DNA of 64,000 bases from an uncultured Desulfurococcaceae archaeon. Its GTDB lineage: Archaea > Thermoproteota > Thermoprotei_A > Sulfolobales > NBVN01. Made by a program: the position numbers and the translations under genes. How positions within the stretch are numbered: the stretch's first letter is position 1; each line of letters starts with the position of its first letter. The DNA lies in the NCBI GenBank assembly GCA_964399035.1, contig CAYNPH010000048.1:9685-73684 (forward strand), read 5' to 3'. This document shows positions 61,190 to 62,272 of this stretch, piece after piece. The notes beneath the pieces were generated by a model. It had not been told where the DNA came from, ran no database searches, and saw only the letters and a list, made by a program, of their open reading frames with translations.

Positions 61190-62272
61190 ATGTCGTCTGT
61201 AGGTGAGGAGTTAGTAGAGAGGGGTTTGGACTTCATAAGGAAGTTAGACGAGTATGCGGGACTAAGACGTAGGCTCGTGTTAGTGAAGCATGAGGTCACG
61301 ACGAACCCAGCTTACGGAAAAGTACCAAGCGAGAGAACGTTAAACGAGAAACTTAGGCTAGGCATTATAAACCTCGATAAACCCCCTGGACCAACAAGCC
61401 ATGAGGTCGTGGCGTGGATCAAGAAGATGCTGGGCCTAACGAAGGCCGGGCACGGCGGGACCCTAGTTCCCCGGTGAACGCCGGGGAAGGGACATCCCAA
61501 AGTGTCCGGCGTCCTGCCTGTGGCATTAGAGTCTGCATCGAAAATCATAGGCTACTTAATGCTCTCAACTAAGGAGTACGTAGCGGTGATGCAACTACAC
61601 GGACATGTAGGTGAGGAGCAGTTGAAGGAAGTTATCAAGAGCTTTGTTGGGCGCATATATCAGAAACCGCCCGTCAGGTCTTCAGTAAAGAGAGCCCTTA
61701 GAATAAAGGAAATCTACAATATAGAGATCCTGGAAATACAGTACCCGTTCGTACTTATGCGCATTGAATGTGAGCACGGAACGTACGTAAGGAAGTTAAT
61801 TCATGATATAGGGGACGTCTTAGGAGTTGGAGCGCATATGAGGGAGCTCAGGAGAACACGTACAGGTCCCTTCAAGGAGGACGAAACCTTAGTTACCATG
61901 CATGAGTTATCCGAGGCCGCCTACATGTGGAAACAGATGAATGACGACAAGCCTCTAAGCGACATAATCCTTCCCGTGGAATTCGGCGTTTCTCACATAC
62001 CTAAAGTGATAGTAATGGACGGTGCAGTATCTGCGATAACTCACGGTGCGGACCTAGCTGTTCCGGGAATAGCAATGCTTCACGAAGGAATTAAGCCAGG
62101 TGATTCCGTGGGGATATTCACTCTAAAAGGCGAGCTAGTGGCTACGGGCATAGCCAAGATGAGTACTGAGCAAATAATTCAGTCAACGAAGGGAATAGCC
62201 GTAAAAACAAAACGCGTTATAATGAGAAAAGACACATACCCGAGGTTATGGGGGCGTCGAAAGGGTCAGTAA
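61190..62272 (+). CDS. cbf5: H/ACA RNP pseudouridine synthase Cbf5, interrupted by a 27-nt intron: join(61190..61466,61494..62272), 351 aa
   Basis: The two ORFs (61190..61477 and 61502..62272) together span Cbf5. Removing 61467..61493 restores [20 protein letters not shown] (TruB motif II). A C-terminal PUA domain is present. Confidence 0.9.
61467..61493 (+). other. bulge-helix-bulge (BHB) intron within the cbf5 mRNA
   Basis: Canonical hBHBh' fold. h GGGA/UCCC, H CCCU/AGGG, 3-nt bulges AGU and ACA, h' UCCCCGG/CCGGGGA with loop UGAACG. Both junctions fall after the 2nd bulge nucleotide. Confidence 0.85.

What the first reader, a model, noticed from the sequence alone, without database searches (positions are those of the whole stretch)
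61457..61498. 27-nt bulge-helix-bulge intron splits the catalytic Asp codon of cbf5
The ORF track shows two fragments: 61190..61477 ending GHGGTLVPR*, and 61502..62272 starting at [11 protein letters not shown]. Deleting 61467..61493 (TTCCCCGGTGAACGCCGGGGAAGGGAC) joins CTA G|AT CCC AAA GTG. This yields [17 protein letters not shown], the universal TruB/Cbf5 motif II, so the catalytic Asp codon is split G|AT. The flanks fold into a canonical hBHBh' motif. The elements are h GGGA(61457-60)/UCCC(61495-98), H CCCU(61461-64)/AGGG(61488-91), bulges AGU(61465-67) and ACA(61492-94), and h' UCCCCGG(61468-74)/CCGGGGA(61481-87) with loop UGAACG. Both deduced junctions lie after the second bulge nucleotide, which is the symmetric geometry expected for the archaeal splicing endonuclease. 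The insert is 27 nt, a multiple of 3, but carries an in-frame TGA, so unspliced mRNA would encode a truncated, Asp-less protein. Introns in crenarchaeal cbf5 mRNAs are documented (Aeropyrum, Sulfolobus), so the class is known. This instance would still be mis-annotated as two genes or a pseudogene by ORF callers.
Basis: partly seen in the sequence, partly recalled or inferred. Interest (0 to 1): 0.75.

Follow-up and report, generated by a model that had tools for sequence, protein, structure and literature searches.

The report
Known-type splicing intron inside cbf5
A 27-base intron of the kind cut out by the archaeal tRNA-splicing enzymes interrupts the catalytic aspartate codon of the pseudouridine synthase gene cbf5. 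It is real, but it is a further example of an intron already described at this exact site in related heat-loving archaea.

Summary

- **Junction:** removing 61467..61493 (27 nt) is the only 27-nt deletion within ±4 nt that restores [12 protein letters not shown]. The 351-aa product is a full-length Cbf5 that aligns without a gap to Pyrococcus furiosus Cbf5.
- **Relatives:** 31 of the 80 related loci fetched from genomes carry an insert of 17-51 nt at the same site. In the register fixed by the Asp codon, the central 4-bp helix pairs in 100% of cells. The inner helix pairs in 98%, with compensatory changes at all five pairs.
- **Close relatives:** six independent assemblies have the same 27-nt insert, 26-27/27 identical, while exon third positions are about 80% identical. 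Gene callers split cbf5 there into 95-aa and 256-aa genes.
- **Pathway:** the window encodes the splicing ligase RtcB. EndA was not found among the window ORFs scanned.
- **Prior knowledge:** Yokobori et al. [quoted passage not shown]

This is a new member of a known kind, from an uncultured Desulfurococcales lineage. Interest is low. Splicing itself is inferred, not shown.

The parts
61190..61466 (+). cbf5 exon 1. It encodes residues 1-92 plus the first base (G) of the catalytic Asp codon, and contains the DKCLD domain.
   Evidence: The ORF 61190..61477 ends GHGGTLVPR*. Pfam DKCLD matches at 1.1e-16. The spliced product is colinear with Cbf5.
61467..61493 (+). 27-nt BHB intron TTCCCCGGTGAACGCCGGGGAAGGGAC, with an in-frame TGA at 61475-61477.
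   Evidence: It is the only 27-nt deletion that restores Asp. The same insert is present in six independent assemblies. It is 26-27/27 identical to them while exon third positions are about 80% identical.
61494..62272 (+). cbf5 exon 2. It starts with AT of the Asp codon, then [10 protein letters not shown]..., and carries the TruB catalytic domain and the PUA domain.
   Evidence: Pfam TruB_N, TruB_C_2 and PUA match. NCBIfam identifies the spliced protein as the Cbf5 equivalog.
61457..61498 (+). hBHBh' motif. Its parts are h 61457-60/61495-98, H 61461-64/61488-91, 3-nt bulges 61465-67 and 61492-94, h' 61468-75/61480-87 and loop 61476-79. The predicted cuts are 61466|61467 and 61493|61494.
   Evidence: The MFE fold gives this structure. 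Anchored comparison of 32 loci supports it.
47281..48759 (-). RtcB, the RNA ligase expected to join the two exons after endonuclease cleavage. It is a pathway component, not part of the cbf5 locus.
   Evidence: Pfam PF01139 RtcB matches at 7.6e-175 (583 bits), covering profile positions 1-426 of 426.

Best explanation
cbf5 of this uncultured Desulfurococcales archaeon is interrupted by a 27-nt archaeal bulge-helix-bulge intron between the first and second bases of the catalytic Asp codon. The primary transcript folds into a strict hBHBh' motif built from the exon sequences GGGACCCU and UCCC together with the intron.

The inferred mechanism has three steps:
1. The splicing endonuclease EndA cuts after the second nucleotide of each 3-nt bulge (61466|61467 and 61493|61494).
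2. This leaves a 2',3'-cyclic phosphate and a 5'-OH end.
3. RtcB, which is encoded in this window, joins the exons to give an mRNA for a 351-aa Cbf5 with an intact [12 protein letters not shown] active site.

Unspliced mRNA would give a 95-aa fragment ending at the intron's TGA and no active enzyme.

Shown here: the motif, the unique junction, the identity of the product, conservation and covariation at the same site, and the presence of RtcB. Inferred from published work on other species: the actual cleavage and ligation.
For: - **Fold:** the MFE fold equals the hBHBh'.
- **Junction:** only the BHB-predicted deletion restores Asp.
- **Product:** the spliced product is Cbf5 and aligns without a gap to solved Cbf5 structures across the junction.
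- **Same site in relatives:** 31 of the 80 related genome loci, plus the window, have a 17-51 nt insert at the identical site, with H paired 4/4 in all 32.
- **Covariation:** on the junction-anchored alignment, H pairs in 100% of cells and h' in 97.8%. All 5 h' pairs show changes on both sides. The covariation score is 0.302, against 0.109 for shuffles (0 of 500 reach it) and at most 0.093 for slid registers.
- **Constraint:** the intron is 26-27/27 identical in six independent assemblies, although exon third positions are only about 80% identical.
- **Phylogeny:** the window's clade nests inside an all-intron-bearing clade.
- **Ligase:** RtcB is encoded at 47281..48759.
[quoted passage not shown] They are cut between the second and third bulge residues. 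They were confirmed by cDNA and by EndA cleavage in Aeropyrum and Sulfolobus (PMC2738675; PMC10485636).
Against: - There are no transcript data for this organism, so splicing is inferred.
- EndA was not found among the roughly 65 window ORFs scanned. The rest of the genome is not available.
- A strict BHB motif alone occurs at chance frequency in this window, so the structure by itself would not be evidence.
Confidence: 0.93

Rival explanations
1. The gene is a pseudogene or a truly split gene. The 27-nt insertion is never removed, and the cell makes separate 95-aa and 256-aa polypeptides or none at all.
For: Gene callers see two ORFs.
Against: - Neither fragment would carry the catalytic Asp.
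- Both exons are under purifying selection. The protein is 92-95% identical among clade members while third positions are about 80% identical.
- The insert is conserved more strongly than synonymous sites.
- The insert keeps a BHB whose cut sites rebuild the Asp codon exactly.
- The same arrangement persists across many lineages.
Confidence: 0.02
2. The insert is an assembly or sequencing artefact.
For: None specific. The source appears to be a metagenome-derived lineage.
Against: The identical insert is present in six independent assemblies from different samples, with point differences elsewhere in the gene. Homologous inserts occur in 25 further loci.
Confidence: 0.005
3. EndA cleaves the BHB, but mainly to destroy or down-regulate the mRNA. 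Exon ligation would be absent or minor, and the active enzyme would come from elsewhere.
For: Eukaryotic TSEN cleaves some mRNAs for decay rather than splicing (PMC10485636).
Against: The cut sites restore the one codon the enzyme cannot do without. cDNAs from five or more other species show ligated exons at the same site (PMC2738675). RtcB is present.
Confidence: 0.03
4. The 27 nt, a multiple of 3, are translated through by stop-codon recoding, giving a Cbf5 with a 9-residue insertion.
For: The insert length is a multiple of 3.
Against: - There is an in-frame TGA.
- The Asp would be replaced by Val (GTLVPR...).
- Insert lengths in relatives are mostly not multiples of 3 (17, 22, 23, 31, 34, 35 nt).
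- PMC2738675 makes the same argument for the 36- and 39-nt cases.
Confidence: 0.005

Closest known systems
cbf5 pre-mRNA intron of Desulfurococcales and Sulfolobales (Watanabe et al. 2002; Yoshinari et al. 2006; Yokobori et al. 2009, PMC2738675)
   Same: - Same host gene.
[quoted passage not shown]
- Same BHB-type structure, with cuts between the second and third bulge residues.
- Similar short size (16-44 nt in the published table).
- Same taxonomic neighbourhood.
   Different: - The 27-nt size and this sequence are not in the 2009 table, and the host is an uncultured lineage.
- Most of the seven newly analysed introns in the 2009 paper, and most relatives here, have a relaxed motif with the outer helix h only 2-3/4 paired. 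This one is a strict hBHBh' with h 4/4.
- The window clade differs from the other intron-bearing loci at three positions that vary little or not at all among them. The first intron base is U instead of A (G in one locus). The base pair at the foot of h' is U-A instead of G-C or A-U. The H pair is U-A instead of U.G.
- As a result its junction is unambiguous, whereas most relatives allow a 1-nt slide.
Archaeal pre-tRNA and pre-rRNA BHB introns spliced by EndA and RtcB
   Same: The hBHBh' geometry is identical: a 4-bp helix between two 3-nt bulges on opposite strands, with symmetric cut positions. The enzymes are presumed to be the same.
   Different: The motif sits in a protein-coding mRNA with no tRNA body around it. 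It therefore depends on an endonuclease that recognises a BHB out of tRNA context. The literature attributes this to the crenarchaeal (alpha-beta)2 enzyme.
Haloferax volcanii HVO_1309 mRNA intron (cited in PMC10485636)
   Same: It is another archaeal mRNA cut by the splicing endonuclease at a BHB.
   Different: It is in a different gene and phylum and uses a different type of endonuclease (alpha2). It is not homologous to the cbf5 case.

Membership tests
Archaeal BHB intron (EndA/RtcB-spliced) | Two 3-nt bulges on opposite strands separated by a 4-bp helix | tested here: met
   The MFE fold and the explicit coordinates show H CCCU/AGGG with bulges AGU and ACA.
Archaeal BHB intron (EndA/RtcB-spliced) | Flanking helices h and h' (strict hBHBh') | tested here: met
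   h is GGGA/UCCC, 4/4 Watson-Crick. h' is 7 Watson-Crick pairs plus one U.G.
Archaeal BHB intron (EndA/RtcB-spliced) | Cuts after the second nucleotide of each bulge give a functional joined RNA | tested here: met
   In silico, that deletion alone among nine registers restores [10 protein letters not shown]. The rule itself is quoted in PMC2738675.
Archaeal BHB intron (EndA/RtcB-spliced) | Structure maintained by compensatory change in homologous loci | tested here: met
   H pairs in 100% of cells and h' in 97.8%, with both-side changes at 5/5 pairs. 0 of 500 shuffles reach the covariation score, and slid registers score far lower.
Archaeal BHB intron (EndA/RtcB-spliced) | The host encodes the ligase RtcB | tested here: met
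   Window 47281..48759(-) matches PF01139 at 583 bits over the full profile.
Archaeal BHB intron (EndA/RtcB-spliced) | The host encodes a splicing endonuclease able to cut a BHB outside a tRNA, the (alpha-beta)2 type | not testable with these tools
   No EndA domain was found among the window ORFs scanned. The rest of the genome is not available.
Archaeal BHB intron (EndA/RtcB-spliced) | Demonstrated cleavage and ligation (cDNA or in vitro) | not testable with these tools
   This needs RNA-seq or RT-PCR, or an EndA assay.
cbf5 intron of Desulfurococcales/Sulfolobales | The host gene is cbf5 | tested here: met
   NCBIfam Cbf5 equivalogs score 449 and 422 bits, above their cut-offs. PDB Cbf5 chains match at E = 1e-120.
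cbf5 intron of Desulfurococcales/Sulfolobales | [quoted passage not shown] | tested here: met
   The junction is G|AT. The definition is quoted from PMC2738675.
cbf5 intron of Desulfurococcales/Sulfolobales | The host belongs to the Desulfurococcales + Sulfolobales radiation | tested here: met
   The closest loci are Desulfurococcales MAGs at 92-94% amino-acid identity. In the NJ tree the window sits inside an intron-bearing clade. Reverse gyrase and CdvA are in the window.
cbf5 intron of Desulfurococcales/Sulfolobales | Short size, tens of nucleotides | tested here: met
   27 nt here. The published range is 16-44 and the range among the loci here is 17-51.
Group I/II introns, inteins, other curated RNA families (considered) | Match to a curated RNA family, or a size compatible with a ribozyme or intein | tested here: not met
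   The Rfam gathering scan of the window finds only tRNA-Ser. 27 nt is far too short for a self-splicing intron or an intein.

The most novel reading that the evidence does not exclude
The intron may not be a passive relic. It could be kept as a checkpoint that ties production of the H/ACA pseudouridine synthase to the activity of the EndA/RtcB RNA-splicing machinery. On this reading the window's lineage has tightened the ancestral relaxed motif into a strict hBHBh' by several substitutions, including a compensatory G-C to U-A change, which would alter how efficiently the mRNA is spliced. The evidence here shows strong purifying selection on the intron and lineage-specific remodelling. It does not test any regulatory role.
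Probability: 0.1. Interest if true: 0.5.

Novelty: new member of a known kind. Interest (0 to 1): 0.2.

Why it matters
The main value is practical. In this lineage cbf5 is an intact, essential-type gene that automatic annotation splits into two ORFs (seen in relatives). Completeness and pseudogene statistics for such MAGs will therefore be wrong unless BHB splicing is modelled.

It also adds an uncultured Desulfurococcales clade to the catalogue of cbf5 introns. This clade's version is a strict motif with an unambiguous junction. The wider set of loci (17-51 nt introns, interleaved with intron-less lineages) could refine the published gain-and-loss history. It does not open a new question.

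Tried and rejected
- **Exact record look-up:** searching for the window's exon-2 ORF product found no record, so the source contig could not be identified.
- **Other mRNA introns:** a strict hBHBh' scan of both strands of the window gave 5 further hits (near 10071, 12490, 48833 and 52053 on +, 42742 on -). The total equals the shuffle expectation. Four of these hits lie inside, or antisense to, uninterrupted ORFs, and the fifth (48833) runs across the start of the L22 ORF at 48862. I treat all five as chance.
- **Enzymes in the window:** a Pfam scan of about 65 window ORFs found RtcB but no EndA. The 131-aa ORF next to RtcB has no Pfam match, including none to archease.
- **Rfam:** the scan found nothing at the site.
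- **Primary papers:** the 2002 and 2006 papers are not in the searchable library, so they are cited through PMC2738675.
- **Validated introns:** Comparison with them therefore rests on the published description of site and structure, not on an alignment made here.

Full report
**Observation.** The elements are GGGA/TCCC (h), CCCT/AGGG (H), the 3-nt bulges AGT and ACA, and TCCCCGG/CCGGGGA (h'). The ORF list shows 61190..61477 ending GHGGTLVPR* and 61502..62272 beginning (GTG) [11 protein letters not shown].

Folding 61450..61505 as RNA gives this hBHBh' as the minimum-free-energy and centroid structure. The energy is -30.3 kcal/mol, z = -3.6 against dinucleotide shuffles, and 1 of 200 shuffles folds as well. 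The fold adds one U.G pair closing a GAAC tetraloop, and a short outer helix.

**Junction.** Deleting 61467..61493 joins CTA G|AT CCC and yields [17 protein letters not shown]. None of the eight other 27-nt deletions shifted by -4 to +4 restores Asp. So the junction required by the protein is unique. It coincides with cuts after the second nucleotide of each bulge, which is the rule PMC2738675 states for validated cbf5 introns.

**Product.** The 351-aa product passes the NCBIfam Cbf5 equivalog models (449 and 422 bits against cut-offs of 242 and 238). It aligns without any gap to Pyrococcus furiosus Cbf5 (3lwo_A, E = 1e-120) straight through [21 protein letters not shown].

**Is it more than chance?** A strict hBHBh' alone is not. 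My scanner required h 4 bp, H 4 bp, h' at least 4 bp, at most one G.U pair, and an intron of 13-120 nt. It finds 6 motifs on the two strands of the window, and 40 dinucleotide shuffles give 6.0 +/- 2.4. Of the other five hits, four sit inside or antisense to intact ORFs and one (48833) runs across the start of the L22 ORF at 48862. I regard all five as noise.

The evidence lies in two things. First, a BHB falls in the one register that rebuilds the catalytic codon: about 6 hits among roughly 1.4e7 position-and-length combinations. Second, it is conserved in relatives.

**Relatives.** A scan of one genome per GTDB species returned 80 cbf5 loci. The nearest are three uncultured Desulfurococcales MAGs at 92-94% protein identity.

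I anchored every locus on the coding sequence (GHGGTL ... PKV[ST]G). On that basis 31 loci plus the window carry an insert of 17-51 nt at the identical point, and 49 have none. With columns defined only by the Asp-codon junction, all 32 have the central helix paired 4/4 and both bulges 3 nt long.

On this anchored alignment (A2):
- H pairs in 100% of cells.
- h' pairs in 97.8% of cells, with changes on both sides at all five pairs (G-C, A-U, U-A, C-G and others).
- The outer helix pairs in only 69% of cells, which corresponds to the published "relaxed" motif.
- The covariation score is 0.302 against 0.109 +/- 0.012 for shuffles, and 0 of 500 shuffles reach it.
- Sliding the 3' partners by 1-3 columns drops pairing from 90% to 39-61%.

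The alignment was built in the register of the proposed structure. That register was fixed by the protein, not by the fold.

**Within the window's own clade.** Six independent assemblies (L001-L003 and L081-L083) have the same 27-nt insert. It is 27/27 identical in five of them and 26/27 in one, where the single change is in the loop. The one change in the exon part of H (C to U in L003) keeps the pair as U.G. Exon third positions are only 80-82% identical. If the intron drifted like synonymous sites, about 5 differences per comparison would be expected. This rules out an assembly artefact and argues for selection on the intron.

In those relatives the gene callers did split cbf5 into a 95-aa DKCLD gene and a 256-aa TruB/PUA gene, in the same L34e-cmk-L14e-cbf5 synteny.

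**Context and pathway.** The window is from a hyperthermophilic crenarchaeon. It carries reverse gyrase, CdvA, a Vps4-like ATPase and a thermosome. It also encodes a full-length RtcB at 47281..48759 on the minus strand (583 bits). RtcB is the ligase that seals EndA products. EndA itself is not among the window ORFs scanned.

A rough NJ tree places the window's clade inside a clade in which every member has the intron (17-51 nt). The Asgard, Baldrarchaeota, Methanomethylicota and Thermoproteales-type outgroups have none.

**Comparison with what is known.** PMC2738675 reports that most Desulfurococcales and Sulfolobales have a cbf5 intron of 16-44 nt. [quoted passage not shown] The paper cites cDNA confirmation and cleavage by the hetero-oligomeric EndA in several species. 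It also notes that introns whose length is a multiple of three must still be spliced, because they disrupt the catalytic codon. Reviews and circRNA-seq work treat the case as established.

So the finding meets every defining feature of that family that can be tested in silico. What is specific here:
- The host lineage is uncultured.
- The 27-nt sequence is not in the published table.
- The motif is strict rather than relaxed.
- The window clade differs from the other intron-bearing loci at three positions that vary little or not at all among them: intron base 1 is U (A in the others, G in one), the h' foot pair is U-A, and the H pair is U-A instead of U.G.
- These differences make the junction unambiguous.

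**Verdict.** This is a new member of a known kind. Splicing is inferred, not shown. Interest is low (0.2), and the practical point is annotation.

Noticed in passing
window 47281..48759 (-): A full-length RtcB tRNA-splicing ligase gene sits inside the ribosomal-protein gene region, between S19 (46382..46867, +) and L22 (48862..49347, +). The adjacent 131-aa ORF 46880..47275 (-) has no Pfam match and is not recognisably archease.
   Followed up: partly
window 42182..50000: The S10-type ribosomal cluster is broken up. L3 (44012..45064), L4 (43178..43999) and L2 (42182..42898) are on the minus strand, while S19, L22, S3 and the following genes are on the plus strand. An RNA methyltransferase (45446..46321) and RtcB lie in between.
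   Followed up: no
loci L001-L083 (NJ tree): Intron-less cbf5 lineages labelled Desulfurococcales or Desulfurococcaceae (for example L020-L026, L031, L033, L035, L042, L044, L064-L066, L077) interleave with intron-bearing ones at several places. This hints at more than the two independent losses proposed in 2009. The tree is only a rough NJ tree of one protein.
   Followed up: partly
L005:899-949 (Zestosphaera MAG) and L058:3269-3285: These cbf5 introns are 51 nt and 17 nt. The first is longer than the 16-44 nt range tabulated in 2009 and the second is near its lower end. Both keep the H helix and the 3-nt bulges.
   Followed up: partly
window 35363..38158 (+): This is a Cdv cell-division cluster: CdvA (35363..36070), a 289-aa ORF with no significant Pfam hit in the position where CdvB/ESCRT-III would be expected (36115..36984), and a Vps4-like AAA ATPase with a MIT domain (37001..38158).
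   Followed up: no
window 62421..63380 (-): A single 319-aa protein combines an Alg14-like N-terminal part with a glycosyltransferase-28 C-terminal (Alg13-like) part. It lies directly downstream of tRNA-Ser(TGA) at 62308..62395.
   Followed up: no
window 61450..61453 / 61502..61505: An extra outer helix GCAC/GUGU, separated from h by a 3x3 internal loop, extends the predicted structure beyond the hBHBh'. I did not check whether it is conserved in relatives.
   Followed up: no
window 1..64000: ARAGORN and Rfam each detect only one tRNA (tRNA-Ser TGA) and no other curated RNA family in the 64 kb.
   Followed up: no
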